In this document: in pieces, positions 2,088 to 31,004 of the stretch
Numbering within the stretch: position 1 is the first letter of the stretch
Layout of the letters: each line of letters begins with the position of its first letter
Source: Naegleria gruberi
Taxonomy: Eukaryota
Assembly (NCBI GenBank): GCA_000004985.1
Contig: GG738932.1
Reading direction: 5' to 3' (one strand)
DNA: 64,000 bases
Program-made: the position numbers and the translations under genes
Notes under the pieces: model-generated
Told to the model about the DNA's origin: nothing
Seen by the model: only the letters and a program-made list of their open reading frames with translations
Databases searched by the model: none

Positions 2088-3902
2088 NNNNNNNNNNNNN
2101 NNNNNNNNNNNNNNNNNNNNNNNNNNNNNNNNNNNNNNNNNNNNNNNNNNNNNNNNNNNNNNNNNNNNNNNNNNNNNNNNNNNNNNNNNNNNNNNNNNNN
2201 NNNNNNNNNNNNNNNNNNNNNNNNNNNNNNNNNNNNNNNNNNNNNNNNNNNNNNNNNNNNNNNNNNNNNNNNNNNNNNNNNNNNNNNNNNNNNNNNNNNN
2301 NNNNNNNNNNNNNNNNNNNNNNNNNNNNNNNNNNNNNNNNNNNNNNNNNNNNNNNNNNNNNNNNNNNNNNNNNNNNNNNNNNNNNNNNNNNNNNNNNNNN
2401 NNNNNNNNNNNNNNNNNNNNNNNNNNNNNNNNNNNNNNNNNNNNNNNNNNNNNNNNNNNNNNNNNNNNNNNNNNNNNNNNNNNNNNNNNNNNNNNNNNNN
2501 NNNNNNNNNNNNNNNNNNNNNNNNNNNNNNNNNNNNNNNNNNNNNNNNNNNNNNNNNNNNNNNNNNNNNNNNNNNNNNNNNNNNNNNNNNNNNNNNNNNN
2601 NNNNNNNNNNNNNNNNNNNNNNNNNNNNNNNNNNNNNNNNNNNNNNNNNNNNNNNNNNNNNNNNNNNNNNNNNNNNNNNNNNNNNNNNNNNNNNNNNNNN
2701 NNNNNNNNNNNNNNNNNNNNNNNNNNNNNNNNNNNNNNNNNNNNNNNNNNNNNNNNNNNNNNNNNNNNNNNNNNNNNNNNNNNNNNNNNNNNNNNNNNNN
2801 NNNNNNNNNNNNNNNNNNNNNNNNNNNNNNNNNNNNNNNNNNNNNNNNNNNNNNNNNNNNNNNNNNNNNNNNNNNNNNNNNNNNNNNNNNNNNNNNNNNN
2901 NNNNNNNNNNNNNNNNNNNNNNNNNNNNNNNNNNNNNNNNNNNNNNNNNNNNNNNNNNNNNNNNNNNNNNNNNNNNNNNNNNNNNNNNNNNNNNNNNNNN
3001 NNNNNNNNNNNNNNNNNNNNNNNNNNNNNNNNNNNNNNNNNNNNNNNNNNNNNNNNNNNNNNNNNNNNNNNNNNNNNNNNNNNNNNNNNNNNNNNNNNNN
3101 NNNNNNNNNNNNNNNNNNNNNNNNNNNNNNNNNNNNNNNNNNNNNNNNNNNNNNNNNNNNNNNNNNNNNNNNNNNNNNNNNNNNNNNNNNNNNNNNNNNN
3201 NNNNNNNNNNNNNNNNNNNNNNNNNNNNNNNNNNNNNNNNNNNNNNNNNNNNNNNNNNNNNNNNNNNNNNNNNNNNNNNNNNNNNNNNNNNNNNNNNNNN
3301 NNNNNNNNNNNNNNNNNNNNNNNNNNNNNNNNNNNNNNNNNNNNNNNNNNNNNNNNNNNNNNNNNNNNNNNNNNNNNNNNNNNNNNNNNNNNNNNNNNNN
3401 NNNNNNNNNNNNNNNNNNNNNNNNNNNNNNNNNNNNNNNNNNNNNNNNNNNNNNNNNNNNNNNNNNNNNNNNNNNNNNNNNNNNNNNNNNNNNNNNNNNN
3501 NNNNNNNNNNNNNNNNNNNNNNNNNNNNNNNNNNNNNNNNNNNNNNNNNNNNNNNNNNNNNNNNNNNNNNNNNNNNNNNNNNNNNNNNNNNNNNNNNNNN
3601 NNNNNNNNNNNNNNNNNNNNNNNNNNNNNNNNNNNNNNNNNNNNNNNNNNNNNNNNNNNNNNNNNNNNNNNNNNNNNNNNNNNNNNNNNNNNNNNNNNNN
3701 NNNNNNNNNNNNNNNNNNNNNNNNNNNNNNNNNNNNNNNNNNNNNNNNNNNNNNNNNNNNNNNNNNNNNNNNNNNNNNNNNNNNNNNNNNNNNNNNNNNN
3801 NNNNNNNNNNNNNNNNNNNNNNNNNNNNNNNNNNNNNNNNNNNNNNNNNNNNNNNNNNNNNNNNNNNNNNNNNNNNNNNNNNNNNNNNNNNNNNNNNNNN
3901 NN
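2088..3902. other. Assembly gap, a run of 1815 N
   Basis: Continuous n characters. The two 649-aa ORFs of X residues in the track are artefacts of this gap. Confidence 1.
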
Positions 3903-4532
3903 CATCGGGTTGGATGACACCACTGTTTTAAAGATTACAGTTGTGAAAAATGGACTGATCTCAATCATTATTGAGAATTTAAGTACACTTTAAAGGACTG
4001 CCACCATTTCCATCGAGTTTGGAACATTTTCCATCTACTTGAAAAAATTCCTTAATAATTGTGAAGTAAGAAAAGTTCAGTAAGAAAAAATAAATTTCAG
4101 TTTGTTGTATAGTTAATACATTCTCATTCAAAAGGTTGGATAAGTCTCTTTTTTGAAAAGAAGCAACGGGTTTGAGCCACTCCACGTTCATTTGAAACAA
4201 TTTCAAAAAGTTTTTACATCGGGTTGGATGACAACCATTGTTTAAAAGATAACAGTTGTGAAAAAATCACAAATCTCAATCATTTCTTAGAATTTAACTA
4301 TGCTGTAACGGAATGTTACCATCTACAGCAATTTTAGAACACTTTCCATCTACTTGAAACAATTCCTTAATAATTATGATGCAAGCAAAGTTCACTAAGA
4401 AAAGAATATTTCAAAAACTTATTGTTGGTGGAATGATTCTGCACAACTATAGAGCATCTCCTTGTTCCGATATTGTACATGTGGATATTAGTAAAAAAAC
4501 CACCACTATAACAAAAATTTTTGTTTTGGTCC
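3903..4532. repeat. Tandem repeat with a ~314-bp period, 2 units, immediately right of the gap
   Basis: catcgggttggatgaca...ttccatctacttgaaa(a/c)aattccttaataatt...aagttca(g/c)taagaaaa occurs at 3903 and again at 4217 with ~80% identity over ~185 bp. Confidence 0.7.
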
Positions 4533-6310: not shown

Positions 6311-7891
6311 TTAATAAATATTACAATTTAGAGTTTTCTGATTCGAGAATCTCTTTGAAGCAAATCGAATTGCTTTTCCATCATTCGTTACAGCTGCCAA
6401 GACAATCTCTTCACAATCTTTGAGTTTTGGAGAGGCATACATAAGGGCAGATCCATTTTTTGTTACGGCTGTCAAAACAAGTTCCTTATCTGCCTTGAAT
6501 TCTTCACTTGCAAATCTGAGACAAAATCCACAGTGTGAAAGAGCCTCTTTAAGAAGCTCTCTGTCGTCTTTGAAAATGGTCTTCTCCAAAAGGTCCGGAT
6601 TAAATTGCAGAATTGATTTGAAATCCTCTCTGTCACTCTCTATTATTTTGTAAAGAGATTGAACTTTGGATGTAAAATAAGGCGTTCTTGCAGCTAGGAA
6701 AAAGCATTCTCTATCCTTTTGGATTGCCTCTGGCATTTCGTTAATATACTTTCCGTTACTTTTCAATATTGTGAGAACTAGTTCTCTATTATTAAGCAGA
6801 AAATCACTATTGATATAATGTAGAATCGTGAAGTTTGATTTAAATAGTGCCTTTTTCACAATATCTTCATCTTCCTTGAATTTTCCAATATATTGAAAAG
6901 AACTTGCTGCATCTATGTCAATAATCATGTCAATAATTTCTCTATCAGTCCGTATTTCCTCAGAACAGTTTCTTATTAAACATACATCACTCTTCAATGC
7001 CTCAATCATAAAAACCCTATCACTCCACCATTTTCCTATTGGAGAAGCATAAAACAGAATTGATTGTGATGATTTGTAAACATCCATAACAAAATCTGTA
7101 TCTTCCAAAAGTTCTTTTGGAATTAATGTGCCCAAGGATGGATTTCTAATGAATACCTTCTTGGCAATATGTCTCATCATCTTGATATAATCAGGAACAT
7201 ATGCATAACATTTTGGATCCAATTCAATAGCATGCATGGTCAACTTGTCCACAAATTTGTACTTGTCTGGCAACGTACTATAATATTCCTTGGTCATTGA
7301 GAAGGGGAAGTACACTCTTTCTTTAAACTTTTCAAAATTGTAAAATTCTGGATTAAATGGACGATTTACCATCGTTACAAACTCAAAAAAGTCAACCGTG
7401 TCTCCATTCACTCTAATCCTCCCATCTCTGCTCAATGTTAATATGTTAGATAATTGGGTATCAACTCCCAAGATTGCATAACCATTCTGTGTGTCCAAAC
7501 CATTATGTGTGTCCAAAAACCAAGATTCGACAGGTCCCAACAAATTACTAACATGCACAACAGTATTAGACCATGGCTGTCTACCATTCGTCAAGACAGT
7601 TACAAACAATTTCAAATGGAAAGGTATGGCAATTTGTAATTCTTCTTGTTTCTTCTCCAATTCTTCTTCACTCACCACTTCTTCCATGAGAGGGTGATAT
7701 TGTAGACAATTATTCTCATCATGCCACATCCGAGTCATTTCACGTTTCTCCAACAAATATCTAGAATGGTGAAAAGTCTTGTTGACCAATGCAATTCTCT
7801 TCCTGTCTGTTCCTCTCGGAAGAAATTCAAACACATACCCGAGAATATCAATATTTAATTGATCCATCATGATTGTGGAATTATTTTGCAA
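6311..7891 (-). CDS. F-box-like N-terminus plus DUF4116-repeat protein (526 aa), single exon
   Basis: The N-terminal LNIDILGYVFEFLP...RIALVNKTF looks F-box-like. The C-terminal half carries repeated ELVLTAVTKNGSALMYASPKLKDCEEIVLAAVTNDGKAIRFAS units, which match the DUF4116 repeat signature (VLxAVxxNGxALxYAS). TAA stop at 6311-6313. Confidence 0.75.
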   Translation of the reverse strand: MQNNSTIMMDQLNIDILGYVFEFLPRGTDRKRIALVNKTFHHSRYLLEKREMTRMWHDENNCLQYHPLMEEVVSEEELEKKQEELQIAIPFHLKLFVTVLTNGRQPWSNTVVHVSNLLGPVESWFLDTHNGLDTQNGYAILGVDTQLSNILTLSRDGRIRVNGDTVDFFEFVTMVNRPFNPEFYNFEKFKERVYFPFSMTKEYYSTLPDKYKFVDKLTMHAIELDPKCYAYVPDYIKMMRHIAKKVFIRNPSLGTLIPKELLEDTDFVMDVYKSSQSILFYASPIGKWWSDRVFMIEALKSDVCLIRNCSEEIRTDREIIDMIIDIDAASSFQYIGKFKEDEDIVKKALFKSNFTILHYINSDFLLNNRELVLTILKSNGKYINEMPEAIQKDRECFFLAARTPYFTSKVQSLYKIIESDREDFKSILQFNPDLLEKTIFKDDRELLKEALSHCGFCLRFASEEFKADKELVLTAVTKNGSALMYASPKLKDCEEIVLAAVTNDGKAIRFASKRFSNQKTLNCNIY

Positions 7892-10781: not shown

Positions 10782-12137
10782 ATGATGAACTCACAATTAT
10801 CTCCTGAACGAAGCTTAAAGAAAGATGAGCCGAAGCTCTCTTGGCTGCACACTCACGTTGCACCATTGTTTTTAATGCTCGTCACTCCACCTTGTGCTTT
10901 TTTATATTGGTACACTTGCGAACACCTTGGTGGCTCTGTCATTGCTCTTTTTAATATGTTCGGAAAGGAAGGTATCATTAACTCTATCGTCTCCATTGTT
11001 CAGCCTTATATTTTAGGATCTAAGGTTGCTTGGGCAATTATTGTGGTGTTCTCTATTTTGCAATTAACATTGATGAAAGTTTTGCCAGGAAAAAAGTTTA
11101 ATGGCCCGATGACTCCTAAAGGAAATCTACCAGTCTACACAGACAATGGATTATTAGCTTATTTAATTACCATTATGCTATTCTTCCTTTGCTCAAGCAC
11201 TGGTCTTAATTTATTCCCTTCCTCAATTCTTTATAACCATTTTCCATACTTGATTGGAGCCTTGAACATTTTCAGTTTGGTTTTTTGTCTCTTCCTTCAA
11301 ATCAAAGGCATGTATTTCCCAAGCAGCACAGATTGTGGCTCAAATGAAGGAAATTTCATTATGGATTACTATTGGGGAACTGAATTGCATCCAGTTGTTT
11401 TTGGTTTTGATGTTAAGGTCTTTACGAATTGTAGATTCGGAATGATGAGCTGGCCTTTACTTATTTTATCATTTGCTGCCAAACAATACGAAGTCACTGG
11501 TCAACTTAGCGACTCTATGATCATTAATTTGGTTATTCAATTCATCTACCTTACCAAGTTTTACATGTGGGAAAGTGGCTACTTGTGCTCAATTGATATT
11601 ATGCATGATAGAGCTGGTTATTACATTTGTTGGGGATGTTTAGTGTGGGTACCATCTGTTTACACTTCCACATCCTTGTACATTTCCAAGTATCCAAACA
11701 ATTTGGGCCCTTATTGGACTGCATTCATCTTGATTGGAGGTGCTTCAGCAGTCATCCTTAACTATTTGGCAGATATCCAACGTCAAAATGTACGTAAGGC
11801 AAACGGAAAATGCCTTGTTTGGGGAAAGAAACCAGCACTCATTGAGGGTGAAATCATTGCTGAAAATGGAGATAAGAAAAAGTTCATCTTGTTAATATGT
11901 GGTTTTTGGGGTATCACCAGACATTTTCATTATGTTATGGAATTGCTGGGAACATTTTTCTGGACTGTTCCAGCACTGTTCAATAACTTCTTGCCATACT
12001 TTTATTTATTTTTCTTAACAATATTGTTGTTCCATAGAGCAGAAAGAGACCAGAAGAGATGTAGCAAGAAGTATGGTAAATATTGGGAAGAATATTGCAG
12101 ACGAGTTCCATACAAGGTAATTCCTTATGTATTTTAG
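10782..12137 (+). CDS. Sterol reductase of the DHCR7/ERG4/ERG24 family (451 aa), single exon
   Basis: Sterol-reductase signatures GNFIMDYYWGTELHPV and GFWGITRHFHYVMELLG. The C-terminus LLFHRAERDQKRCSKKYGKYWEEYCRRVPYKVIPYVF is typical of 7-dehydrocholesterol reductase and C-24(28) reductase. Multi-pass membrane protein. Confidence 0.85.
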   Translation: MMNSQLSPERSLKKDEPKLSWLHTHVAPLFLMLVTPPCAFLYWYTCEHLGGSVIALFNMFGKEGIINSIVSIVQPYILGSKVAWAIIVVFSILQLTLMKVLPGKKFNGPMTPKGNLPVYTDNGLLAYLITIMLFFLCSSTGLNLFPSSILYNHFPYLIGALNIFSLVFCLFLQIKGMYFPSSTDCGSNEGNFIMDYYWGTELHPVVFGFDVKVFTNCRFGMMSWPLLILSFAAKQYEVTGQLSDSMIINLVIQFIYLTKFYMWESGYLCSIDIMHDRAGYYICWGCLVWVPSVYTSTSLYISKYPNNLGPYWTAFILIGGASAVILNYLADIQRQNVRKANGKCLVWGKKPALIEGEIIAENGDKKKFILLICGFWGITRHFHYVMELLGTFFWTVPALFNNFLPYFYLFFLTILLFHRAERDQKRCSKKYGKYWEEYCRRVPYKVIPYVF

Positions 12138-13585: not shown

Positions 13586-16500
13586 TTATTGCGAATATTC
13601 ACAATCAGAACCATTGCTAGACAAATTGTCACAATGTCTTTCATCCATCAAATCGACACGAAGAGGAATGACCTGTGATGTCTTACGTTTTGCATGATAG
13701 ACAGACTGAATTGGCAAATTCCTTGATTTTTCTTTTGGAGAAGGCACAGGATCATGAAGTAGACCCACAGGTGTGTGGCCATAGAATGATTCCATCTCCA
13801 CTTCTTGAACTCTTAATGAGAAACTTGAATGAGTATCTGCAACTATTGTCATTTCCTTTTTACGATTCTTTCTAAGCTTAATACATGCAAATATAAGACC
13901 AATAATTATCAATAGGATTATTCCAGAAGCTACAATGGAAATTACAATAGCTTCTACATAGAGATACGAGTGATAAGTTACTACAGTTGTCTCCATAGCA
14001 AAGACATTGGTCAATCTAACGCAGGTACACATTATATGAGTGGCATTTCTATTTTGTATAGTACAATCAGTTCTAATAGTGTTTGGTGATCCATTTCTGA
14101 AATCTCCACAACTAATGATCTTTTCCTTCTCTGCAAATTCCAAATTGGTTAAGGCAATTCCATCAGTAGTATCTTCAGTGATGTTATACGGAATTATATA
14201 GGAAATCTTACTGCCATCTGCTTGGACTGGTAATTCACTAAAGTCAACAGATACAATTGGTGAAATGAGTTTTGCAAAAGTAGCTCTGTTTCCAATTTTC
14301 TTACCATTTTGTAATCTTGAATTGAGAGAAAAGATATCATGCGAGACTGTCAATACTGATATGAAGGGTTTTCTCACAAGAGATGCTGAATTTGGAGTGG
14401 TAAAGAATTTTGATTCAAAAATAACTTTTGTTTTGGAAATTGGATCAAAAATTGATTTTGGAAAATCGTAAAGAGTATTTCTGTTCAATACAGCAGAAAA
14501 GAAAGGACCCTTCTTACTTTTTCCTGCACTTCCAATGGAGGAGCTTCTTGCTTGAAGGGAGGATGATTTCTTGAGTGCAGTGTGCAAATTGTCAGAGTTT
14601 GAGGTTTGGTCAATGACATATTGACGATTGGTAATGTACTTGTAAGCAAATTCTAAACAATTATAAATTAAAACATCAACTCCTCCTGAAATTCTCACCT
14701 CCTGATCAGAAAGTGCATAATTCAAGAATAAATTCAAAGTTGATAATGATTCTGAAATAGTGTTTGTATCTAAATAAGGATAATTAACAAGTAATGAATC
14801 AATAGCAAACGATAACAAGGATAAGTATTCATCACTCATTCCAGCAGTGTTATTTACCACAAACATCATATCTTTCAGAATATTTAACTTGGTTCCTTGA
14901 ATGTTTGAAAAATCTGAAATTGACAATTCACAATGCTTTCCAATCCAACCATCTCTACATTTACATTCACCTGCAACATCCACTCCATTCTGACAAGTAA
15001 TGGAATCACGTCTAGTATTTGCATACGAACTAAATGCTTCTTTCAAGAATACTGAGTCAGTTCTTGAAGTGGAAGCAGATTGATAAACACTCTTACTGAA
15101 ATCACCATCTATGGTGTATTGAATGGATTGAGATTCCCATTGTTGAACAATATTTTGAATTTCAGCAATGTTTTGAACTAATGGCTTGTAAATGGTAACA
15201 TTTGAGAAGGTTGTTGAGAATGCACCAGTGGTCTTGTCAACAATATCAAAGAAACATGTGACAGATGTTCCAGTAAATGGTGCTGGCAGTTTGGTGGAGT
15301 ATACCTCTCCTAAATTATACATTACAATCTTGGATTGAGATCTATCGTCTATAAAACCATATCTATAATCAATATTATTGTCACTTGTCTTGCAATTTTC
15401 ACAATAAAATAAAAAATCAGTTGAAAGAGCTATTCCTTCTTTTGGAGTAACATCACAAGAACAAATTCTAGGAGTAGATGCTACTTGGAATGTATAACTT
15501 GTTTGAGTAGATAAACCAGTGCTGGTATCATAGGTAAAGATACTGAGCGAGTTGACTGAACCTTGTTCAAGATCTGAGCTCTCAATTGAGATGGTATTAG
15601 TTTCAGATTCTACAGTTGAGTGCTGAATAATGGATGACGAGTCGATAATCTTACCATTCAATACCCATGTTGAATTTGAACTATTTGAAACTGTCAATGT
15701 TTGAATTGTGATGAGTTGACCAGGAACAATGACAGGTGAAGAAGGTTCAATACTAACAATATTTACCAATGGAGGAATATGATTAAAGTGAATAGTTGTT
15801 GATTTTTGAATAGATCTTCCATCACTCTTTGTAATTTCCAGATTTAAGACCAAAGAATCAATCCTACTTTCTAACAAATCAGACGAAATTGAAAATTGAA
15901 CTGATTTTGAACTTGATAAACTTTGTAACGTTGACAACAGACCTGGACTTTGATTATTAGATGTCCATTTCCACACCTCAGTCGATTCTTCATTGAAAAT
16001 TGCCTCTGGATCAACAAAATCTATTTGTAAACTGGTCAACTCACTAACAGCTGCAACTTGTAAAATATTCAGTTGTAAATCTGGAGATTTGGTTCTCAAA
16101 GTAACATCTAGAGAAACTTTCTGATTTGCTGTGTAAAATACAGATACTCTAAATATGTAAGTGTTATTTCCAAAAACTGTCAATTTTGGAATGAATAAAT
16201 TGTTAAAAGTGTCAATTGTATATTCAATGACAGGTCCACTCACTTTCGACCATGCAATTTGTACACTGTCTGTTGAAGATTTACATGATGAATCAATAAC
16301 AATCTTCTTTAAAGTTATTGGAAACTCATTCGAATACTTTTCAATAATTGTTTCTCCCTTATACATTGTTAACATTGGAAGTGGTGCAGCAACCTTATTG
16401 AAAATGGATGAAACTGAAAGTGAGCTATTGGTATTAAGGAAATTACTCTTCACTTTAAGTCCAATTCTATATGAATTTGGTGGAACGGATGAATCAAGGG

Positions 16501-19500
16501 TAATTTTTGGTTGATTCGGGAAAGATTCGAATAGTATGTTCATATTTAAATCTAATAGGAACCAATAGAAAGTTAAAGATCTACCATCAAATGAATAACT
16601 GGAAGAACCATCAGCTGTAATGGCATCACATGAACTATATTGATTCACATTTGGCATTGTAATTACTGCATGTGAAAAGTCAACTGTAATCTCTGGAACC
16701 GTAATGACAAGTGAAATGTATTTAGGAGTGGAACGAACCATTATATTTTCAAAAGCCTGAGTATTGATTTGAATTGTGGTTGTTCCAGGTGTGAAATTAA
16801 AATCCAAAGAACCAAATGAAATCATGAAAATGTCATTCTTTTTGTCAGAGTACTGACATTTAACATTCGATTGCTTACTTCCAAAAATAGATAAATCAAG
16901 TGGATTGATAATCTTTTCACAAGGAATTGAATCATTCATCTGTGGAGAATGTAATATAAATGTAACTCCTGTAAAATCTGGTGAAATCAAAGCTGGACCA
17001 ACAATTTTAGTATTACACAATTTACCATAAAAGTTAATTGCACAAAATTCACACTTAGTTCCAGACCAGAAACCTTCTTCATAATTTGAAGAACAGAGGC
17101 ATTGTCCTTCTGAATTACAATCGCCATGATTTGAGCAATTGATATGTCTGTCACAACTATTTAAACTGGAATTCTGATTATTGAATGTTTCATTATTCAG
17201 GTTAGATGTTGTTGAATTTACAGTGCTTTGATTATTTAGAATTGTATTATTGACTGATAATGTCGAATTATTTGTGACATTACTTGAATTACTATAATTG
17301 GAATTTGTATTGTTAGAAATAATTGTTGAATTAATAATTAAAGTGTTGTTTGTGCTGTTAGTGATATTTGATGTTTGATTGACCTGGTTTTGAACTTCAA
17401 TTACTGAACTATTTCCAAAAGTAGTTTGATTGTTAATTAGAGTTTGAATAAGTGTTGAATTTTGATGTTGTGAAATATTTTCTACTGTTGACTGATTGAT
17501 AAATGTGTTATTTGAATCACTTATTGTGTTATTAGAAATTAGTTCTGTAGTATTAGAAGTATTGGAAGTTTCGTTAACAATGGATGAATTATTGGAAACA
17601 ATAGTTTGGGAAGAATTGTTTTGAATTTTTCCATTATTATTGGATTCTGTTGATGTTTCGTTAACAATTTGTGAATTATCCAGAGTTTGATTAGTTTCAA
17701 CAATGCTATTATTCGAAACATTTGTTTCATTCATAAGAATAGTCGTTTCGTTATCAACAACTCCAATTGATGAATTTGTGGTTGTATTCACTTGTTGTGA
17801 AATATTTGAACTATTTCCCATAAAAGTAGAATTAGTAGTGCTGTTCACTGAATTATTTGTTGAATTCACAAATGATTCATTTCCATAATTAGTAGAATTG
17901 GTAATACTGGAATAATTGCTTGTACTATTGCTGTTCATTGAAATATTCAGTAATTGTGTAGAATTACCTAGTGTATTATTATTAGAAACTGATTGCGTTG
18001 TATTCGACAGTGAGTCATTTCCATGAATATTTGTAGTATTGGCAACAGTGGAATTGGAAATTGTTTGTGAAGAATTACTTTCCATTGAGGAATTATTCAG
18101 TACAATCGTAGTATTTGATAAATTTGAAGAATTACCAACTGTAATATTATTAGAAACTTGAGTAGTATTAACTATTGATGAATAATTATTCAATGTGGAA
18201 TTATTTAATACTGTGCTATTGTAAACAGTATTGTTCTTAATCATTGACGAGTTGGAATTAATAATAGTTTGATTGACTGAAACTGAACTGTTTGTAACAA
18301 CAGTTGAATTGGAAGAAACATTAGACGAAACTACTGATTGAGAAGAAATACATTTCGAATCAACAAACGGTGAATAAGGATCCCAATTAGTAAAATTCAT
18401 GAACTGAGTAGTTTCGAATATAGTTACCATCGTTGCCGAATCTGGTATAATCAGAGTTCCATAAATTTTTGAATTCGTAGCTGTCACTTCAGTGGCCAAA
18501 ATATTTCCATGAATTTCAGAATCTTCCTCAATTTGCAATAAACTAACAGACCAATAAACATTATTATAACTTGAACAATTACGAAATTCGAAAGTGACAC
18601 CACGTAAGATTAAATAACCACCAGAAATGTACACATCTTCATATCCATCAATAATAACTTTGGAAGTTAGAACACAATTACTATCCGTGAAATGATAATT
18701 CCTTCCTCCTTTAAGAGTCAAAGAATGAGAAGAACAATCAATTTGAATAGTTGATCCTCTATTCGAAAGTGAACTAAATATCGAATCAAACAAGGACACC
18801 ATCATTCTTCCATAGACATCATGTTCATCTTGCACTGTGGAAGCAGTCACTCTACCTGAAAAATAAGTCTGATAATAAGCCAACTTTCCAGGAAGTGAAA
18901 TTCTGTCCATAATAGAAACGCTACTTGCAGCAACAATCATATTGTAACCTTGGAAAGGATTATAGAACTTTCTTGTTTGATTACAATAGGAAGATGTCCA
19001 TCCAATTGAACAGGTACAAGTGTTAAAGGACCCACAAACACCATGTCCATTACAAACTAAACTGGTATCTGTATTGGAAATTCCAAAACATTGAGTATGT
19101 TCACATGATGAACCATCATAATTGGAATTACAAACACATTGATCAGAATCTGTGCATTGGCCATGTCCAGAACATACTTTTGGATCCAAACGATCCAATC
19201 CAAAACAATTGTAATATTCAGAATATTGACAATAGGCAGAATTCTGATAGGGAGAATCACACACACAAGTATCCCAATTTACACATCGTCCATGTCCATA
19301 ACAAACACTTGGATCATTCGCAGGAATGGAATTACAAGTTGGAGGAACATTTGAGCTACAGTCTTCAAAATAATATCCCAATTCACAAACACAATTATCA
19401 CTCGATACACAAGTTCCATGATCTGAACATACTCCAGATTGTCCTACTAGCTTACCAAAACAATTTGGAGGAATAATTTCACAATAATTACCACTATATC

Positions 19501-21526
19501 CAGAATTACATTGACAATGATCATCTGATAAGCATTTACCATTTCCACTACAAACTGCAGAACTTGTATTTACAATTCCATAACATGAACTTAAAGTTTT
19601 GTGACAGGATGGAGAAAGATAAGGTTGATAAGGATCAAAGCTTGAAAAGTTGTTAAAGACAACTGCATTCGAGAAGCCAGTCAATACGTTTCGAACAATG
19701 ATAGTTCCATAAATATTGGCATTATCTAAGGCTAAAGAGGAAGCAGCAATGAAGAGAATTCCATAAAAATCTCCTGTAATTCTTGTTTGTGTTGTTTGCC
19801 AATAAATATTATTGTAACTTGCACAATTTTTGAAAACAAAGTTGACATTGGAAATGGAAATATCAGAAGTTGCTGAAATTGAAATCAAATCAGGACCATC
19901 AAATGTCATTGTAATTGAATCAAAGGTGCAACTTGACTGTGTTTGATAGTTTAGTCCTCCCTTAAACTCTATATCTTGACCACACACAAAATCAATCTTA
20001 TCAGTTAAAAGGAATTGATTGTAAAAACTATTGGCAGTTGCTATTAATTGAATACTTTTTTCCTTAGATAAACTATTACTATTTAAGGAAGGTACTACAA
20101 ACATTGAATAAATATCTGGATAATAAGAAAAGTAAGCTGGAAATGAAATTGAAGAATAAACATAAAGTCCTGAATCAAAGGATATAAAATTGTAACCCTG
20201 AAATGGATTGTAAACATGTTTGTAATTTTGACACTTATCTCCATACCATCCAATTTCACATGAACAATTATTGTTAGATAGACAAGCACCATGTCCAGAA
20301 CAAACTTGACTATCATCTTTTCCATATCCATAACAAGTTAAACGACAAAAATATTGCTGAACTACATTATCACATAGACACGTGTCTTGTGAAATACAAT
20401 GTCCACCACCTCCGCAAGCATCTGGATGGTCAGGATTAACTCCATTGCAGTCGAAATGTTTAGTCTTACATTCAATACCAGAGTATCCATTGTTGCATTG
20501 ACATTGATCTTGTCCAATGCATTTGCCATGTCCATTGCAAACTGTTTTGGCTGTGGCCAATTTTCCATAACAAATGTTGACTGTAGGTTTTGGACATGAA
20601 GGAGAAAGATGCGATTGATAAGGATCCCAAATAGAAAAGTTACTAAAAGTTACCATTGAACTATCAAGTTGTGAAGTACGACCATACCAAAGAATAACAG
20701 TTCCATGAATGATTGCTTGATTTGGCTCAAAGTCTCTGACCTGAATGATTCCATAAAAATCTCCACTCACCCTCATTGTTGAAAGATACCAATAAATTGT
20801 ATTGTAACTGGCACAATTGAGAAATTTAAAAGTGACATCCTTTACATTCAAATAACTGATCGAAATAAAAACTGGTTCAGATCCATTAAATGTTAATGTT
20901 ACACCATCAAAAACACAATCATCAGGGGTATAGTACCTTTCACCTCCTTGGAAATAGAAATCTTGACCACAAATTAGTGGTTTAAAAAAGGGTGGAGTTC
21001 CAGTGGCAAAGTAATCAAAGACATTGATTGATGTAACTTGCATGACATATGAATGTGTAGAGTAGCTGTCAAATGACTGTTTTAGAGATGTCATAAGAGG
21101 TGGCTGTGGATTATCCGAATAGAAACTTGAAAAATATCCAGGCAGTACAACATCTGAAACTGGAAGTGAGGATTCGAGTGAAATCATACTATATCCTTGA
21201 AATGGATTGTAAACATGTCTGTAATTTTCACACTTATCTCCATACCATCCAATTTCACATGAACAATTATTGAATGACATGCAAGCACCATGTCCAGAAC
21301 ATACAAATGGGGACCATTGTGCATCATATTCACCACCTTCTCCAAAACATGAAGTATATTGACACACGTATCCATGATAATTTTCATGGCATTGACACCT
21401 ATTATCGCTCACACACGTACCATGTCCACTACAAACATTTGGATCTGTGGCTTCTAAATTTCTACAGGTGTGAGCAAATACTAATGTACAAATGACTTGA
21501 ATAAGGAACATCATTGTCATCATCAT
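13586..21526 (-). CDS. Giant type-I transmembrane protein of about 2646 aa. Signal peptide, three tandem [EGF-EGF plus YNPFQGY] modules, further tenascin-type EGF repeats (CxGHGxC), a mucin-like Asn/Ser/Thr-rich N-glycosylated stalk, a cysteine-poor beta-rich region, a GPS-like motif, one TM helix and a cytoplasmic tail.
   Basis: Uninterrupted ORF 13586-21835; the probable start is the Met run MMMTMMFLIQVICTLVFAHT (signal peptide) at 21526. There are at least 15 CSGHG(T/A)C...C.C..G(Y/W).G..C EGF units. A ~550-aa stretch contains hundreds of NxS/T sequons. The C-terminal block is C-x16-C-x11-C-x-C, i.e. CGDFRNGSPNTIRTDCTIQNRNATHIMCTCVRLTNVFAM, and lies about 10 aa before the TM helix AIVISIVASGIILLIIIGLIFACI. 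It matches the GPS consensus C.C.HLT.FA[VM]. Confidence 0.85.
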   Translation of the reverse strand: MMMTMMFLIQVICTLVFAHTCRNLEATDPNVCSGHGTCVSDNRCQCHENYHGYVCQYTSCFGEGGEYDAQWSPFVCSGHGACMSFNNCSCEIGWYGDKCENYRHVYNPFQGYSMISLESSLPVSDVVLPGYFSSFYSDNPQPPLMTSLKQSFDSYSTHSYVMQVTSINVFDYFATGTPPFFKPLICGQDFYFQGGERYYTPDDCVFDGVTLTFNGSEPVFISISYLNVKDVTFKFLNCASYNTIYWYLSTMRVSGDFYGIIQVRDFEPNQAIIHGTVILWYGRTSQLDSSMVTFSNFSIWDPYQSHLSPSCPKPTVNICYGKLATAKTVCNGHGKCIGQDQCQCNNGYSGIECKTKHFDCNGVNPDHPDACGGGGHCISQDTCLCDNVVQQYFCRLTCYGYGKDDSQVCSGHGACLSNNNCSCEIGWYGDKCQNYKHVYNPFQGYNFISFDSGLYVYSSISFPAYFSYYPDIYSMFVVPSLNSNSLSKEKSIQLIATANSFYNQFLLTDKIDFVCGQDIEFKGGLNYQTQSSCTFDSITMTFDGPDLISISATSDISISNVNFVFKNCASYNNIYWQTTQTRITGDFYGILFIAASSLALDNANIYGTIIVRNVLTGFSNAVVFNNFSSFDPYQPYLSPSCHKTLSSCYGIVNTSSAVCSGNGKCLSDDHCQCNSGYSGNYCEIIPPNCFGKLVGQSGVCSDHGTCVSSDNCVCELGYYFEDCSSNVPPTCNSIPANDPSVCYGHGRCVNWDTCVCDSPYQNSAYCQYSEYYNCFGLDRLDPKVCSGHGQCTDSDQCVCNSNYDGSSCEHTQCFGISNTDTSLVCNGHGVCGSFNTCTCSIGWTSSYCNQTRKFYNPFQGYNMIVAASSVSIMDRISLPGKLAYYQTYFSGRVTASTVQDEHDVYGRMMVSLFDSIFSSLSNRGSTIQIDCSSHSLTLKGGRNYHFTDSNCVLTSKVIIDGYEDVYISGGYLILRGVTFEFRNCSSYNNVYWSVSLLQIEEDSEIHGNILATEVTATNSKIYGTLIIPDSATMVTIFETTQFMNFTNWDPYSPFVDSKCISSQSVVSSNVSSNSTVVTNSSVSVNQTIINSNSSMIKNNTVYNSTVLNNSTLNNYSSIVNTTQVSNNITVGNSSNLSNTTIVLNNSSMESNSSQTISNSTVANTTNIHGNDSLSNTTQSVSNNNTLGNSTQLLNISMNSNSTSNYSSITNSTNYGNESFVNSTNNSVNSTTNSTFMGNSSNISQQVNTTTNSSIGVVDNETTILMNETNVSNNSIVETNQTLDNSQIVNETSTESNNNGKIQNNSSQTIVSNNSSIVNETSNTSNTTELISNNTISDSNNTFINQSTVENISQHQNSTLIQTLINNQTTFGNSSVIEVQNQVNQTSNITNSTNNTLIINSTIISNNTNSNYSNSSNVTNNSTLSVNNTILNNQSTVNSTTSNLNNETFNNQNSSLNSCDRHINCSNHGDCNSEGQCLCSSNYEEGFWSGTKCEFCAINFYGKLCNTKIVGPALISPDFTGVTFILHSPQMNDSIPCEKIINPLDLSIFGSKQSNVKCQYSDKKNDIFMISFGSLDFNFTPGTTTIQINTQAFENIMVRSTPKYISLVITVPEITVDFSHAVITMPNVNQYSSCDAITADGSSSYSFDGRSLTFYWFLLDLNMNILFESFPNQPKITLDSSVPPNSYRIGLKVKSNFLNTNSSLSVSSIFNKVAAPLPMLTMYKGETIIEKYSNEFPITLKKIVIDSSCKSSTDSVQIAWSKVSGPVIEYTIDTFNNLFIPKLTVFGNNTYIFRVSVFYTANQKVSLDVTLRTKSPDLQLNILQVAAVSELTSLQIDFVDPEAIFNEESTEVWKWTSNNQSPGLLSTLQSLSSSKSVQFSISSDLLESRIDSLVLNLEITKSDGRSIQKSTTIHFNHIPPLVNIVSIEPSSPVIVPGQLITIQTLTVSNSSNSTWVLNGKIIDSSSIIQHSTVESETNTISIESSDLEQGSVNSLSIFTYDTSTGLSTQTSYTFQVASTPRICSCDVTPKEGIALSTDFLFYCENCKTSDNNIDYRYGFIDDRSQSKIVMYNLGEVYSTKLPAPFTGTSVTCFFDIVDKTTGAFSTTFSNVTIYKPLVQNIAEIQNIVQQWESQSIQYTIDGDFSKSVYQSASTSRTDSVFLKEAFSSYANTRRDSITCQNGVDVAGECKCRDGWIGKHCELSISDFSNIQGTKLNILKDMMFVVNNTAGMSDEYLSLLSFAIDSLLVNYPYLDTNTISESLSTLNLFLNYALSDQEVRISGGVDVLIYNCLEFAYKYITNRQYVIDQTSNSDNLHTALKKSSSLQARSSSIGSAGKSKKGPFFSAVLNRNTLYDFPKSIFDPISKTKVIFESKFFTTPNSASLVRKPFISVLTVSHDIFSLNSRLQNGKKIGNRATFAKLISPIVSVDFSELPVQADGSKISYIIPYNITEDTTDGIALTNLEFAEKEKIISCGDFRNGSPNTIRTDCTIQNRNATHIMCTCVRLTNVFAMETTVVTYHSYLYVEAIVISIVASGIILLIIIGLIFACIKLRKNRKKEMTIVADTHSSFSLRVQEVEMESFYGHTPVGLLHDPVPSPKEKSRNLPIQSVYHAKRKTSQVIPLRVDLMDERHCDNLSSNGSDCEYSQ

Positions 21527-28011: not shown

Positions 28012-28943
28012 TATGTTTCGAATATTGTTTAGTGTTGTTTTTTTGTCTGTTGATGTAACACTGTGCTGTCTATATCCAACAGTTCAAAAATTCTTCAGCT
28101 TTTCACTTATTGTGTAACTTTATTCGAATGAGGAAGACACTCAAATTGTTATTGGATTCCAAATTGTTTCTTCATTGACCAAATTTAATGTGTACTTTCC
28201 ATTAATGCCAAGTTGAAAATTGACACCTTGCTTCTTTTTAAAAAACTCCCAAAACATCAATTTCCTTCCAACATGTAAGGTGCTAAACGAGTCAAGACAA
28301 GACTTTTTGTAGTATGGTTGTGAAAAGGAAATGGATTGAGTCACGTTGATTTATGGCACATTTACTTTACCATTTTCAAAATCTAATAGGTCAAACTGTA
28401 GTAAAACATGTTGAGGTGATGTTGTAAAAGGGGTATTTATTGAAATGATGTGGTGTTTATTAACGAGCTCTTCAATCAAGTCGACCTCATAATTGAATTC
28501 CATTCGAAAATAAAAAATTCTGCACGTTTTTAATCTATTTGGCTCTTCAAAATACCAAAAAGTGGTCTTACCAAATTCATTCTGATTTACCGCTCAAACT
28601 CGTTATGAATAAATTTAAAAAAAAAATAATCCAATCACTTACTCTCTGCTTCAATGACTCTACCACTTCTAGAATTTACTTCATAAAGATGAAGAATTTT
28701 CTGCACAGTTCATCCAACAAGTTACCATTAACACCTTCCAAGAAAGTAGATTTTCCTTATGAAAAGGCCTGCTAATCCTATTTCTAACCTTACTAGTTGT
28801 TAATAGTTGAAAAACATAGCTCGGGCGCACAATTTGATGATGAAAGATATGTTGTTGATGAAAGAGAACCTTTCAATAGATGGTTATCGTGGTTTATTGT
28901 CGTGCCATTATCTCTTCTGTTTCGCGATATTAAAACAAACCAA

Positions 28944-31004
28944 ATGGAAAAAAGAATGTCGACAACAGGTTCTTCCTCATCATCGTCATCTACATCTTCA
29001 AACTCTCCACAAGCAACAACACCATCATCAAATAATAATAATAATAACTCCAATACAAATAATAATAATAATAATAATACTGATGGTAATAAAGAACAAG
29101 AACACGATGAAAATATTCAAAACGGATTCTATTCAATATCTTGTTTAAATTGTAGAAAATCCCATCGATCCTGCAATAAACAATTTCCAACATGTTCTGA
29201 TTGTTTTGAAAGGAATCAGGAATGTATCTATGAATGTCCAAAGAAGAAGGGACGTAAGAAGGGAAGTAGAAATCAGAAAACTCTCGCAACAACAACAACA
29301 ACTGATAATCAACAAGCTAATAGAACAACAACAAAATCTAGGAAACAAAAAACTAATGCTGCAACTTCTCCTCCAGAAGCAACTAATTCATCCTCTGCCT
29401 CCTCATCCTCTTCAAATAATGTAGTGGGTGTTCAACAACAAGATGATTATACAGATTTGTTGAATTTAATTAATAATTATTCTCCATCTTCCAATCAATC
29501 AACTCATCAACTTATTAGAAGAATTTATCAACCCTATGTTAGAATGCAACAACACTTTTTGAATGATAGTATTAGAAAGAGAACTGTTGATATATTCTTT
29601 GAAGTGGTAGGAATGGGATATGATATCATTAGTAGACCAAAATTGGAACAATTAGCATTTGATTATATGAATGATAATATTGAGGAGGATGGAATATTTG
29701 CAAAGAATGTTGGATTTCAAGTTTCTGCAACGAGACACTCTGCAAAAGCAATGCTCTTTGCTATGCAAGCAATGGGAGAACAACGAATGGGAAATTTGGA
29801 TCTTGCTCACAAGGCCTACATGGAATCGAGACATCAATTGACACAATCATTTGATAATATTGATAATACCTATGTGAAAATTGCTTATGGATTATTGTCT
29901 TGCTATTTGGCAGGTGAGGGAGATGATGTGACTGCTCACTATTATCTCAATAATCTCCAACATGCTCTCGAACGTCCAGCCACCAACAATGCCTATCTCC
30001 TCCTAGAGACTGGAGATATCAGCGAGCCAGAAAGACAAGCAAAGCATTTCAATACCTTTATGCTGAAACAAAAAGTTTGCCTCGATCACAACAATCCACA
30101 AGATTTGAATATTTGGGAAGGTTTCATTTCAATGTACACTGCCAAGACACATGAAAATCCTCCTCAAGTGATTACAGATATTATTAGACGACAACCTTCT
30201 CCTCAATTGTTGGCAGTTGTTGATTTGATTATTTCAGTAATGAATACTGCATCAAAATTACATCTTTTCACAGAGAGTCAACGAAAAACATCAGCTGTCT
30301 ATGTTTCCATGATGAATTATTCAGCAAAGATTGCTGTCTTGCTCACTCTGGGAATTCAAGGTGGCGCCTTGTTGGATAATCTGGCAGATAGTGTTACTGC
30401 TTTGACTGATAGTGATATTTTCATGCTGTTGCCTTGTAGTGCCATTCACTACTTTGCCATTGCAATGAATTATAGAGTGAAACAATTCCAATTTGTGCAA
30501 GCAATTATTCAACAAAAATTGGATACTGGAAGAAGTTTAATGTCAATATTTGAAGACCAATATGAAAAACACTACTTTGAAATGGTTATGAAGGACATGA
30601 AGGCCCTCACTAGAATGAATACCAGATTTAAACGTGTGGAAAAGTACTATAGCACTTTAATTAGCAATTTGAAAGCAATTTTACAATGGAAATCGGATAG
30701 AATGGTGGAAATTATTCAAAAAATTGGATTTATTTCAGAGCATATTGGAGTTGAACAATTCAATCCTTACCAGAATACATTGCACAATGAACAAGTAATT
30801 GGCTCGGCTCTAAGCAAACAAGCTTTACCATCATCTTCATTTATTTCATCATTTTCATCATTTGAAAAGAACACATCAGCACCAACAATTTCTCAAAGTG
30901 ATCAACAACTCCTTTTGGATTCATTGGATAATCTTCTCGGCTCTTCAGCAAATAATGACGAGTTCCTAAACTTTGACATTCCAGATTTCACATCACAACA
31001 TTAA
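28944..31004 (+). CDS. Zn(II)2Cys6 binuclear-cluster transcription factor (about 686 aa from ATG 28944; the ORF extends upstream to 28797)
   Basis: CLNCRKSHRSCNKQFPTCSDCFERNQEC has the C-x2-C-x6-C-x6-C-x2-C-x6-C spacing of a Zn2Cys6 domain, followed by the basic stretch KKKGRKKGSR. S/N/T-rich N-terminal and linker regions, then a long helical middle-homology-like domain. TAA stop at 31002-31004. Confidence 0.8.
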   Translation: MEKRMSTTGSSSSSSSTSSNSPQATTPSSNNNNNNSNTNNNNNNNTDGNKEQEHDENIQNGFYSISCLNCRKSHRSCNKQFPTCSDCFERNQECIYECPKKKGRKKGSRNQKTLATTTTTDNQQANRTTTKSRKQKTNAATSPPEATNSSSASSSSSNNVVGVQQQDDYTDLLNLINNYSPSSNQSTHQLIRRIYQPYVRMQQHFLNDSIRKRTVDIFFEVVGMGYDIISRPKLEQLAFDYMNDNIEEDGIFAKNVGFQVSATRHSAKAMLFAMQAMGEQRMGNLDLAHKAYMESRHQLTQSFDNIDNTYVKIAYGLLSCYLAGEGDDVTAHYYLNNLQHALERPATNNAYLLLETGDISEPERQAKHFNTFMLKQKVCLDHNNPQDLNIWEGFISMYTAKTHENPPQVITDIIRRQPSPQLLAVVDLIISVMNTASKLHLFTESQRKTSAVYVSMMNYSAKIAVLLTLGIQGGALLDNLADSVTALTDSDIFMLLPCSAIHYFAIAMNYRVKQFQFVQAIIQQKLDTGRSLMSIFEDQYEKHYFEMVMKDMKALTRMNTRFKRVEKYYSTLISNLKAILQWKSDRMVEIIQKIGFISEHIGVEQFNPYQNTLHNEQVIGSALSKQALPSSSFISSFSSFEKNTSAPTISQSDQQLLLDSLDNLLGSSANNDEFLNFDIPDFTSQH

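What the first reader, a model, noticed from the sequence alone, without database searches (positions are those of the whole stretch)
13586..21526. Giant ~2650-aa single-pass membrane protein combining tenascin-type EGF repeats, a mucin-like stalk and a GPS-like autoproteolysis motif beside the TM helix
Near the C-terminus lies the block CGDF..x16..C..x11..CTCVRLTNVFAM, about 10 residues before the only TM helix. It reproduces the cysteine spacing and the L-T-x-F-A-[VM] core of the GPS motif of adhesion GPCRs, polycystin-1 and REJ proteins, which cleave at HL|T. Here, however, it is followed by one TM helix and a short cytoplasmic tail rather than a 7TM or 11TM domain. Upstream are at least 15 CxGHGxC EGF units, three ~370-aa tandem modules (EGF-EGF plus a YNPFQGY beta-rich domain) and a ~550-aa sequon-dense stalk. 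The whole looks like an adhesion or REJ-like receptor in a protist-grade genome.
Basis: partly seen in the sequence, partly recalled or inferred. Interest (0 to 1): 0.65.

Follow-up and report, generated by a model that had tools for sequence, protein, structure and literature searches.

The report
Naegleria single-pass REJ–GAIN surface receptor
This is a real, very large surface glycoprotein gene of the amoeba Naegleria gruberi; next to the membrane it carries the REJ and GAIN domains known from polycystin-1 and adhesion GPCRs, but it has one membrane helix and lacks the histidine normally needed for self-cleavage.

Summary
The ORF is real. It lies on the minus strand at 13586-21526 and encodes 2646 aa. 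It is the unannotated Naegleria gruberi "predicted protein" NAEGRDRAFT_75960 (XP_002669085.1).

- A Pfam REJ domain (E 2e-17) lies just upstream. The membrane-proximal part is therefore PKD1/REJ-like, and the architecture is closest to sea-urchin SpREJ1.

Differences from the usual pattern:
- The cleavage triplet is R-L-T, not H-L-T.
- In the seven N. gruberi paralogs the -2 residue is R/S/K/Q/K/R/T, never His. One paralog has Gly at +1. Canonical autoproteolysis is therefore unlikely to be a conserved function.
- There is no PLAT domain, no 7TM and no 11TM.

The "YNPFQGY beta-rich" modules are DUF3494 (ice-binding-protein-fold) beta-helices.

Several counts were overstated. There are about 12 EGF units, not 15 or more, and the stalk is 398 aa, not about 550.

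The GAIN region has no sequence relatives outside N. gruberi among 1.84 billion representatives.

Verdict: a new variant of a known kind, of moderate interest.

The parts
13586..21526 (-). Complete single-exon CDS including the stop codon. It encodes 2646 aa and corresponds to N. gruberi NAEGRDRAFT_75960 / XP_002669085.1.
21470..21526 (-). Signal-peptide-like hydrophobic N-terminus (residues 1-19).
   Evidence: Hydropathy scan
21230..21466 (-). Tenascin/teneurin-type EGF units 1-2 (residues 21-99).
   Evidence: Pfam EGF_Teneurin, EGF_2 and EGF_TEN above cutoff; Cys pattern
20594..21214 (-). DUF3494 / ice-binding-protein-fold beta-helix module 1 (residues 105-311).
   Evidence: Aligned with modules 2 and 3 in A3; family evidence
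20231..20572 (-). EGF units 3-5 (residues 319-432).
19604..20215 (-). DUF3494-fold module 2 (residues 438-641).
   Evidence: Pfam Ice_binding E 0.046; A3 profile
18983..19585 (-). EGF units 6-10 (residues 648-848).
18350..18967 (-). DUF3494-fold module 3 (residues 854-1059).
   Evidence: Pfam Ice_binding E 0.0013; AF2 pLDDT 86; the 19 best Foldseek PDB hits are all DUF3494 ice-binding proteins
17156..18349 (-). N/S/T-rich stalk dense in N-glycosylation sequons (residues 1060-1457; 73 sequons).
17015..17155 (-). Laminin/tenascin-like EGF (residues 1458-1504).
   Evidence: Sub-threshold Pfam EGF hits; Cys pattern
16286..17014 (-). Unassigned region conserved among paralogs. It ends in a weak PKD (K319L-like) Ig-type match (residues 1505-1747).
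   Evidence: PF22352, sub-threshold
15092..16285 (-). REJ domain (residues 1748-2145). It has six Cys conserved in the paralogs.
   Evidence: Pfam PF02010 E 2.3e-17, 63 bits against a cutoff of 25; paralogs E 1.7e-15 to 5.5e-23; Cys positions
14930..14995 (-). Small EGF-like unit directly before the GAIN domain (residues 2178-2199). It sits where HormR sits in some adhesion GPCRs.
14549..14920 (-). GAIN subdomain A, five helices (residues 2203-2326).
13967..14521 (-). GAIN subdomain B, beta sandwich (residues 2336-2520).
13994..14110 (-). GPS-like motif with four invariant Cys (C2473, C2488, C2500, C2502) and the conserved last strand TNVFAMET (residues 2473-2511).
14009..14017 (-). R2504-L2505-T2506, the positional equivalent of the H-L-T cleavage triplet. 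It lies in the turn between the last two strands.
   Evidence: Profile alignment to ADGRL3 CSCNHLTNFAVLM; the turn at model residues 364-367; paralog variation
13883..13960 (-). The single transmembrane helix (residues 2523-2548).
13589..13882 (-). 98-aa cytoplasmic tail with no recognisable domain and no PLAT. A C-terminal QVxP...DL(M/L)D patch is shared with paralogs.

Best explanation
The gene encodes a type I plasma-membrane glycoprotein of Naegleria gruberi. It is one of seven paralogs that share an invariant membrane-proximal cassette: laminin-type EGF, a PKD-like region, REJ, EGF, GAIN, one TM helix and a short tail.

The cassette is homologous in fold and domain order to the REJ-GAIN part of the polycystin-1 / sea-urchin REJ family. 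Here it is anchored by a single helix, as in SpREJ1.

The distal part differs between paralogs. In this protein it consists of ten tenascin/teneurin-type EGFs interleaved with three DUF3494 (ice-binding-protein-fold) beta-helices. These sit on a 398-aa heavily N-glycosylated stalk.

Shown here: the ORF, the domain identities and the family.

Inferred:
1. The distal EGF and beta-helix array is the ligand- or substrate-binding surface, for adhesion to substratum, prey bacteria or other cells. The stalk holds it far from the membrane.
2. The GAIN domain is most probably a non-cleaving, structural GAIN. It keeps the four GPS cysteines and the buried last strand (TNVFxxET), but the -2 general-base His is replaced in every paralog. 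It would act as a compact juxtamembrane coupler rather than as a self-cleaving switch.
3. Any signal must pass through the single helix and tail, or through a partner membrane protein. No tethered-agonist/7TM mechanism is available.
For: - ORF and topology.
- Identity with N. gruberi XP_002669085.1, and the fact that all relatives are N. gruberi paralogs.
- REJ: PF02010 E 2.3e-17, and E 1.7e-15 to 5.5e-23 in five paralogs.
- GAIN fold, AF2 model: pLDDT 76.9, pTM 0.75, five helices plus about 13 strands.
- GAIN fold, Foldseek: the only PDB hits with E<=1e-3 are five GAIN structures, TM 0.36-0.60.
- GPS register: the family profile aligns 'CrCskLTNvfvie' with ADGRL3 'CSCNHLTNFAVLM' (E 0.036). 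Pfam GPS is sub-threshold in 4 of 7 paralogs.
- No catalytic His: the -2 residue is R,S,K,Q,K,R,T and the +1 residue is T in six paralogs and G in one, while N-V-F and the four Cys are invariant.
- Literature on the -2 His: mutating it abolishes cleavage (PMC13197933). BAI3, with Arg at -2, was uncleaved in crystals and in HEK cells (PMC3321182).
- DUF3494 modules: Pfam PF11999 hits 4 of 9 modules, best E 1.2e-6. The profile hits 11 ice-binding-protein chains in the PDB at E 2e-4 to 2e-3. The AF2 model has pLDDT 86, and its 19 best Foldseek hits are all DUF3494 ice-binding proteins.
- Precedent for a REJ-GPS protein with one TM: SpREJ1 (PMC1934368).
Against: - The GAIN assignment rests on a model built from only seven paralogous sequences. 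The other four AF2 models scored lower (pLDDT 52-66).
- No sequence search reaches significance against a known GAIN or GPS: Pfam GPS 13 bits against 22.5, and PDB profile E 0.036.
- Non-cleavage is inferred only from the missing His. BAI proteins with Arg at -2 are reported as cleaved in brain, and this paralog keeps L-T.
- The adhesion/recognition function, surface localisation and expression are untested.
- No partner protein was identified, and the neighbouring genes in the window are unrelated.
Confidence: 0.62

Rival explanations
1. The GAIN domain is autoproteolytically active despite lacking His. The protein is cut between L2505 and T2506 in the ER and travels as a non-covalent NTF/CTF heterodimer. 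Mechanical pull on the EGF/beta-helix array sheds the giant NTF. This would work like polycystin-1, suREJ3 or adhesion GPCRs, or by analogy like the SEA-domain membrane mucins. It would leave a stub of one TM helix plus tail that signals or is endocytosed.
For: - The fold is GAIN.
- L(-1) and T(+1) are present in this paralog, and T is kept in 6 of 7 paralogs.
- R-L-S in BAI3 is the nearest natural precedent, and BAI proteins were reported cleaved in brain.
- Sea-urchin REJ and PKD1-like proteins with GAIN domains do self-cleave (PMC13197933).
Against: - The -2 residue is never His and varies freely (R,S,K,Q,K,R,T), while neighbouring positions are invariant.
- One paralog has Gly at +1 and so has no nucleophile.
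- The -1 residue is Phe in three paralogs.
- Mutation of the -2 His abolishes cleavage in tested receptors.
- The best structural matches are the uncleaved GAINs BAI2, BAI3 and CELSR1.
Confidence: 0.2
2. The juxtamembrane domain is a lineage-specific Naegleria domain that is not homologous to GAIN. On this view the AF2 model resembles GAIN through model bias or convergence.
For: - No significant sequence hit to any GAIN or GPS.
- An exhaustive HMMER search finds only N. gruberi paralogs.
- The alignment is shallow and AF2 model confidence is uneven.
Against: Several independent lines agree:
- Helix-then-sandwich secondary structure of the right size.
- Four invariant Cys plus CxC-x2-L-T-N directly before the TM helix.
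- A weak but position-exact profile match to the ADGRL3 GPS.
- Pfam GPS as a recurring sub-threshold hit in 4 of 7 paralogs.
- A bona fide REJ domain immediately upstream, as in PKD1-family proteins.
Confidence: 0.07
3. The protein is a gamete or mating-type recognition receptor, functionally equivalent to sea-urchin SpREJ1 or the Ectocarpus male-gamete REJ protein, rather than a general adhesion or prey receptor.
For: - It has the same core architecture as SpREJ1, REJ plus GPS/GAIN plus one TM.
- A REJ+GPS protein is male-gamete specific in a brown alga.
- The distal domains of the multi-paralog family vary strongly, as is typical of recognition proteins.
Against: - No expression or life-cycle data were available here.
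- There is no lectin domain as in SpREJ1.
- Sex has not been observed directly in N. gruberi (own knowledge).
Confidence: 0.1

Closest known systems
[quoted passage not shown]
   Same: A large, heavily glycosylated ectodomain with EGF, a REJ domain and a GPS/GAIN region directly before the membrane. It has one TM helix and a short tail instead of the 11-TM polycystin body (PMC1934368).
   Different: - SpREJ1 has C-type lectin domains and one EGF. The Naegleria protein has no lectin domain.
- The Naegleria protein adds ten tenascin-type EGFs, three DUF3494 beta-helices, a 398-aa sequon-rich stalk and an extra EGF between REJ and GAIN.
- There is no detectable sequence similarity in the GAIN part.
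Polycystin-1 / PKD1 family (PKD1, PKD1L1-3, PKDREJ, SpREJ3-9)
   Same: The domain order is REJ, then GAIN/GPS, then the first TM helix. There is a possible PKD-type Ig domain upstream.
   Different: - No PLAT/LH2 domain after the TM helix.
- No further TM helices and no channel-like region.
- The cleavage triplet is R-L-T instead of H-L-T.
Adhesion GPCR GAIN domains, especially the uncleaved BAI2/BAI3 (ADGRB2/3) and CELSR1
   Different: There is no 7TM domain, so no tethered-agonist (Stachel) mechanism is possible. Sequence identity is 10-14%. The two Trp of the canonical GPS are not present; an invariant Phe follows the first Cys.
Single-TM isoforms of the Drosophila adhesion GPCR CIRL
   Same: A GAIN domain followed by only one TM helix exists as a natural protein form (bioRxiv 10.1101/2023.01.11.521585, abstract seen).
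   Different: Those are splice isoforms of a 7TM gene. Here the single-pass form is the only form, and it is shared by all seven paralogs.
Ectocarpus Esi0130_0068 and the GAIN proteins of Tetrahymena and Dictyostelium
   Same: These are non-holozoan proteins with REJ and/or GPS/GAIN. They show that the module predates animals.
   Different: The Ectocarpus protein has 6-7 TM helices and a Pfam-significant GPS. The ancient GAINs described by Arac et al. keep a well-conserved cleavage site. The Naegleria family does not.
DUF3494 / ice-binding proteins (IBP-1 fold; for example FfIBP, LeIBP, EfcIBP)
   Same: The three YNPFQGY modules have the same fold, a right-handed beta-helix with one long flanking helix.
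   Different: Here they are embedded as repeated modules between EGF arrays of a membrane receptor in a mesophilic amoeba. Ice binding is not expected and was not tested. Pfam scores for this protein's own modules are below the cutoff.

Membership tests
GAIN domain (fold family) | A fold of about 320 residues with a helical subdomain A followed by a beta-sandwich subdomain B. | tested here: met
GAIN domain (fold family) | A GPS motif at the C-terminal end with four conserved Cys, lying immediately before the first TM helix. | tested here: met
   C2473, C2488, C2500 and C2502 are invariant in seven paralogs. The motif ends 11 residues before the TM helix.
GAIN domain (fold family) | A significant sequence-profile match to Pfam GPS (PF01825). 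| tested here: not met
   13 bits, E 0.15, against a cutoff of 22.5. Sub-threshold in 4 of 7 paralogs.
GAIN domain (fold family) | The consensus cleavage triplet His(-2)-Leu/Ile(-1)-Ser/Thr(+1). | tested here: not met
   The triplet here is R-L-T. In the paralogs the -2 residue is R,S,K,Q,K,R,T, the -1 residue is L or F, and the +1 residue is T in six and G in one. The consensus is taken from PMC13197933.
GAIN domain (fold family) | Actual autoproteolysis into associated NTF and CTF fragments. | not testable with these tools
   This needs protein expression with western blotting or N-terminal sequencing.
Polycystin-1 / REJ (PKD1) family | A REJ domain. | tested here: met
   PF02010 at 63 bits, E 2.3e-17, against a cutoff of 25. 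Five paralogs score 57-82 bits.
Polycystin-1 / REJ (PKD1) family | A GPS/GAIN directly upstream of TM1. | tested here: met
   Met by fold.
Polycystin-1 / REJ (PKD1) family | A PLAT/LH2 domain after TM1. | tested here: not met
   The tail is 98 aa and has no Pfam hit at E<=10.
Polycystin-1 / REJ (PKD1) family | An 11-TM body with a channel-like C-terminal part. | tested here: not met
   Only one hydrophobic helix follows the signal peptide. All seven paralogs have 102-223 residues after the GPS motif and one hydrophobic segment. SpREJ1 and SpREJ2 are accepted exceptions, with 1 or 2 TM helices.
Polycystin-1 / REJ (PKD1) family | PKD (Ig-like) repeats. | tested here: inconclusive
   There is only a sub-threshold K319L-like PKD match just before REJ: E 0.2 here, and 1e-4 to 3e-3 in paralogs.
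Adhesion GPCR | A secretin-like 7TM domain following GAIN. | tested here: not met
   A single TM helix and a 98-aa tail.
DUF3494 / ice-binding-like domain (N-terminal modules) | A Pfam PF11999 match above the gathering score. | tested here: inconclusive
   This protein's modules score 18.9 and 13.8 bits against 28.7. Paralog modules reach E 1.2e-6, and 4 of 9 modules match. The family profile hits 11 PDB ice-binding proteins at E 2e-4 to 2e-3.
DUF3494 / ice-binding-like domain (N-terminal modules) | The IBP-1 fold, a right-handed beta-helix with a flanking alpha-helix. | tested here: met
   AF2 pLDDT 86, pTM 0.86. The 19 best Foldseek PDB hits are all DUF3494 ice-binding proteins, with probability 1.00 and TM up to 0.72.
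Tenascin/teneurin-type EGF repeats | Pfam EGF_Teneurin, EGF_TEN or EGF_2 above cutoff. | tested here: met
   PF23106 124 bits, PF25024 98 bits and PF07974 121 bits.

The most novel reading that the evidence does not exclude
The Naegleria family could be a surviving 'pre-GPCR, pre-channel' form of the REJ-GAIN module.

- Under this reading, a single-pass mechanosensory adhesion receptor in Discoba inherited the module vertically from the last eukaryotic common ancestor.
- The GAIN domain would either self-cleave by a His-independent route or work purely as a force-bearing latch.
- The REJ-GAIN cassette would then be older than its fusion to 7TM bodies (stem holozoans) or 11TM bodies.
- It would also mean that autoproteolysis was not the original function of the fold.
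Probability: 0.15. Interest if true: 0.7.

Novelty: new variant of a known kind. Interest (0 to 1): 0.45.

Why it matters
- **Distribution of GAIN.** GAIN is the hallmark domain of adhesion GPCRs and polycystin-1, and it is a hot spot for disease mutations. It was known outside animals only in a few lineages (Dictyostelium, Tetrahymena and brown algae). A seven-member REJ-GAIN family in a heterolobosean widens that distribution to Discoba.
- **A natural non-catalytic set.** The family shows the cassette on a single-pass anchor with a degenerate cleavage site. This gives a natural set of apparently non-catalytic GAIN domains for asking what the fold does apart from self-cleavage.
- **An unusual domain context.** DUF3494 'ice-binding' beta-helices are used here as repeated modules of a eukaryotic surface receptor, which is not their usual context.
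- **Annotation.** All seven proteins are currently listed as 'predicted protein', so the result also gives them a concrete annotation.

Tried and rejected
- **The search for homologous proteins.** The C-terminal 999 aa returned only P0001, and the seven-sequence GAIN alignment returned nothing. It missed even the protein itself, so it says nothing about distribution. I relied on the exhaustive HMMER search instead.
- **Single-sequence phmmer against PDB sequences.** It gave only EGF-type noise from integrin beta.
- **Foldseek against afdb50.** The library was not installed, so protist AlphaFold relatives could not be surveyed.
- **The look-up of encoding contigs for P0002.** The protein is not on record.
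- **Literature searches.** Naegleria with GAIN, with REJ, with polycystin+GPS, and with adhesion GPCR found no paper describing this family. The Naegleria/PKD2 search gave no statement about a Naegleria polycystin-2.
- **A partner 7TM or channel gene in the window.** ORFs of 250 aa or more encode DUF4116, ERG4/ERG24, Zn2Cys6, ankyrin and ABC-transporter proteins. None is related.
- **'The Cys block is another EGF unit'.** Rejected. It forms strands of the GAIN beta sandwich.
- **P0008.** This was the only non-Naegleria hit in the exhaustive search. It is a prokaryote-type tandem-repeat protein matched through eight short stretches, and I rejected it as spurious.
- **REJ missing from the whole-protein Pfam scan.** It appears when the C-terminal 999 aa are scanned alone and in all five other paralogs scanned. 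I treat the omission as a filter effect of the long, compositionally biased protein.
Full report
**1. What is in the sequence**

A single stop-free ORF runs on the minus strand from 21835 to 13586. From the Met at 21526 it encodes 2646 aa.

A hydropathy scan finds a signal-like N-terminus (residues 1-19) and only one further hydrophobic helix (about 2523-2548). A 98-aa basic-start tail follows. This is the topology of a type I membrane protein.

An exhaustive HMMER search shows the product is 100% identical to P0002. P0002 is Naegleria gruberi XP_002669085.1 / NAEGRDRAFT_75960 / D2W3J2, listed only as 'predicted protein'. That public model starts five residues later. The window is therefore N. 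gruberi nuclear DNA. This fits the 33% G+C content and the ordinary eukaryotic neighbours.

**2. Check of the observation**

The Cys block is present as CGDF-x11-C-x11-CTCVRLTNVFAM at residues 2473-2511. It ends 11 residues before the TM helix. YNPFQGY occurs at residues 106, 439 and 855.

Several numbers were overstated:
- There are 8 strict and 11 relaxed CxGHGxC motifs, and about 12 EGF-like units in all, not 15 or more.
- The three 'modules' have 2, 3 and 5 EGFs and spacings of 333 and 416 aa.
- The stalk is 398 aa (residues 1060-1457, 63% N+S+T, 73 sequons), not about 550.
- The core is L-T-N-V-F-A-M. It aligns with the canonical L-T-x-F-A-V-L-M without a gap, so V sits at the F position.
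- The residue at the catalytic His position is Arg.

**3. The membrane-proximal half**

Pfam on the whole protein reports only EGF families. The C-terminal 999 aa scanned alone give a full-length REJ domain (PF02010, E 2.3e-17, 63 bits against a cutoff of 25) at residues 1748-2145. Five paralogs give REJ at E 1.7e-15 to 5.5e-23. A weak PKD-type Ig match lies just upstream. The REJ region contains six Cys that are conserved in the paralogs.

After a small EGF-like unit (2178-2199) comes the region in question, about 2200-2520. Pfam GPS matches it only below threshold: 13 bits against 22.5, in 4 of 7 paralogs. A single-sequence search of PDB sequences finds nothing relevant.

I modelled residues 2140-2522 with AF2 on an alignment of the seven paralogs (A2).
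- The best model has pLDDT 76.9 and pTM 0.75. The other four models score 52-66.
- It consists of five helices followed by about 13 strands.
- Foldseek against the PDB gives exactly five hits at E<=1e-3, all GAIN domains: BAI2 8oek (2e-12), BAI3 4dlo (two chains, 3.5e-12 and 9e-11), CELSR1 8vy2 (2e-10) and CL1 4dlq (2e-9).
- A profile of the family aligns 'CrCskLTNvfvie' with ADGRL3 'CSCNHLTNFAVLM' (E 0.036). This places R2504-L2505-T2506 at the H-L-T position.
- In the model these residues lie in the turn between the last two strands (model residues 364-367), as the cleavage site does in known GAINs.

**4. Is it a self-cleaving GAIN?**

The GPS reaction typically occurs at His(-2)-Leu/Ile(-1)-Ser/Thr(+1), and mutating the -2 His abolishes cleavage (PMC13197933).

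In the seven paralogs the motif is CxCxx[LF][TG]NVFxx[EQ]T.
- The -2 residue is R, S, K, Q, K, R or T, and never His.
- The -1 residue is L or F.
- The +1 residue is T in six paralogs and G in one.
- The four Cys, N-V-F and the following T are invariant.

Free variation at -2 beside invariant neighbours argues against a catalytic constraint. The conserved strand is explained by its structural role as the buried last strand.

The nearest natural precedent is BAI3, which has Arg at -2. It crystallised uncleaved and was uncleaved in HEK cells, although BAI proteins appeared cleaved in brain (PMC3321182). I therefore rate canonical autoproteolysis as unlikely (about 0.2) but not excluded for this R-L-T paralog.

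**5. The distal half**

Ten tenascin/teneurin-type EGFs score well above Pfam cutoffs. The three 'YNPFQGY beta-rich' modules turn out to be DUF3494 (ice-binding-protein-fold) domains:
- Pfam Ice_binding matches 4 of 9 family modules, best E 1.2e-6. This protein's own modules score E 0.0013 and 0.046.
- The module profile hits 11 ice-binding-protein chains in the PDB at E 2e-4 to 2e-3.
- The AF2 model of module 3 (pLDDT 86, pTM 0.86) is a beta-solenoid with one long helix.
- Its 19 best Foldseek hits are all DUF3494 ice-binding proteins.

**6. The family**

Residues 2200-2522 were searched against 1.84 billion representative proteins. The search returned only seven real hits, all from N. gruberi (P0001-P0007, 36-100% identity). 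An eighth hit is a spurious repeat protein.

All seven share the REJ-EGF-GAIN-single TM core. Six of them also carry an N/S/T-rich stalk and five a laminin-type EGF upstream. The numbers of EGF and DUF3494 modules differ widely, from zero to at least five DUF3494 modules. Tails are short (102-223 residues after the motif) and contain one hydrophobic segment. No PLAT domain, 7TM or 11TM is present.

Whether other heteroloboseans have the family could not be settled. Clustering at 50% identity and the unknown coverage of the library leave this open.

**7. Comparison with known systems**

- The order REJ, GAIN, TM1 is the signature of the PKD1/REJ family.
- The single-pass version is known from SpREJ1; SpREJ1 and SpREJ2 have one or two TM helices (PMC1934368).
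- GAIN domains predate animals, occurring in Dictyostelium and Tetrahymena (PMC3321182).
- A REJ+GPS protein exists in the brown alga Ectocarpus (PMC4700764).
- The GAIN-7TM fusion is placed in stem holozoans (PMC12716839).

No paper in the searched library links Naegleria with GAIN, REJ or GPS.

The protein fails the PKD1-family features PLAT and 11 TM, and the adhesion-GPCR feature 7TM. It is best described as a SpREJ1-like single-pass REJ-GAIN receptor with a new distal domain set and a degenerate cleavage site.

**8. Mechanism (inferred)**

- The EGF and beta-helix array on a long glycosylated stalk is the likely binding surface for substratum, prey or other cells.
- The REJ-EGF-GAIN block forms the juxtamembrane base.
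- With no 7TM, a tethered-agonist mechanism is impossible. Signalling would need the tail, which has a shared C-terminal QVxP...DL(L/M/V)D patch, or a partner such as a polycystin-2-type channel. Neither was tested.

**9. Verdict**

The protein is already in databases but uncharacterised. It is a new variant of a known kind, of moderate interest (0.45).

Noticed in passing
window 18350-18967, 19604-20215, 20594-21214 (minus strand): The three beta-rich modules inside the gene are DUF3494 / ice-binding-protein-fold beta-helices. This domain is best known from psychrophilic bacteria, fungi and algae. Here it is repeated between EGF arrays of a receptor in a mesophilic amoeba. One paralog, P0003, has at least five such modules.
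   Followed up: yes
window 2088-3902: A run of 1815 N marks an assembly gap. The two 649-aa 'ORFs' listed at 2019-3993 on both strands are artefacts of it, as is the 2.8% G+C bin.
   Followed up: yes
window 13589-13882 (minus strand); tails of P0001-P0007: The otherwise divergent cytoplasmic tails of the paralogs share a short patch near the C-terminus, QVxP...(D/E)L(L/M/V)(D/E). This could be a sorting or docking motif. No Pfam match.
   Followed up: partly
window 15092-16285 (minus strand): The whole-protein Pfam scan does not report the REJ domain, and the precomputed Pfam list for paralog P0001 also lacks it. REJ scores 57-82 bits when the region is scanned alone. Public annotation of these proteins probably misses it for the same reason.
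   Followed up: partly
P0001, P0004 and P0007 (N. gruberi contig of 348,446 bp): Three of the seven paralogs are reported on a contig of the same length, which suggests local gene duplication. P0001 (1174 aa) looks like a truncated or mis-spliced model: its alignment to the window protein breaks down over about 115 residues inside the REJ region.
   Followed up: no
window 61297-63528 (minus strand): An ABC transporter is split over two adjacent ORFs, ABC_membrane at 62437-63528 and ABC_tran at 61297-62394. The two are presumably joined across a short intron.
   Followed up: no
window 6311-7891 (-), 10782-12137 (+), 28797-31004 (+), 46528-48120 (-): The neighbouring genes are a DUF4116-repeat protein, an ERG4/ERG24 sterol reductase, a protein with a fungal-type Zn2Cys6 cluster, and an ankyrin-repeat protein. 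None is related to the receptor.
   Followed up: partly
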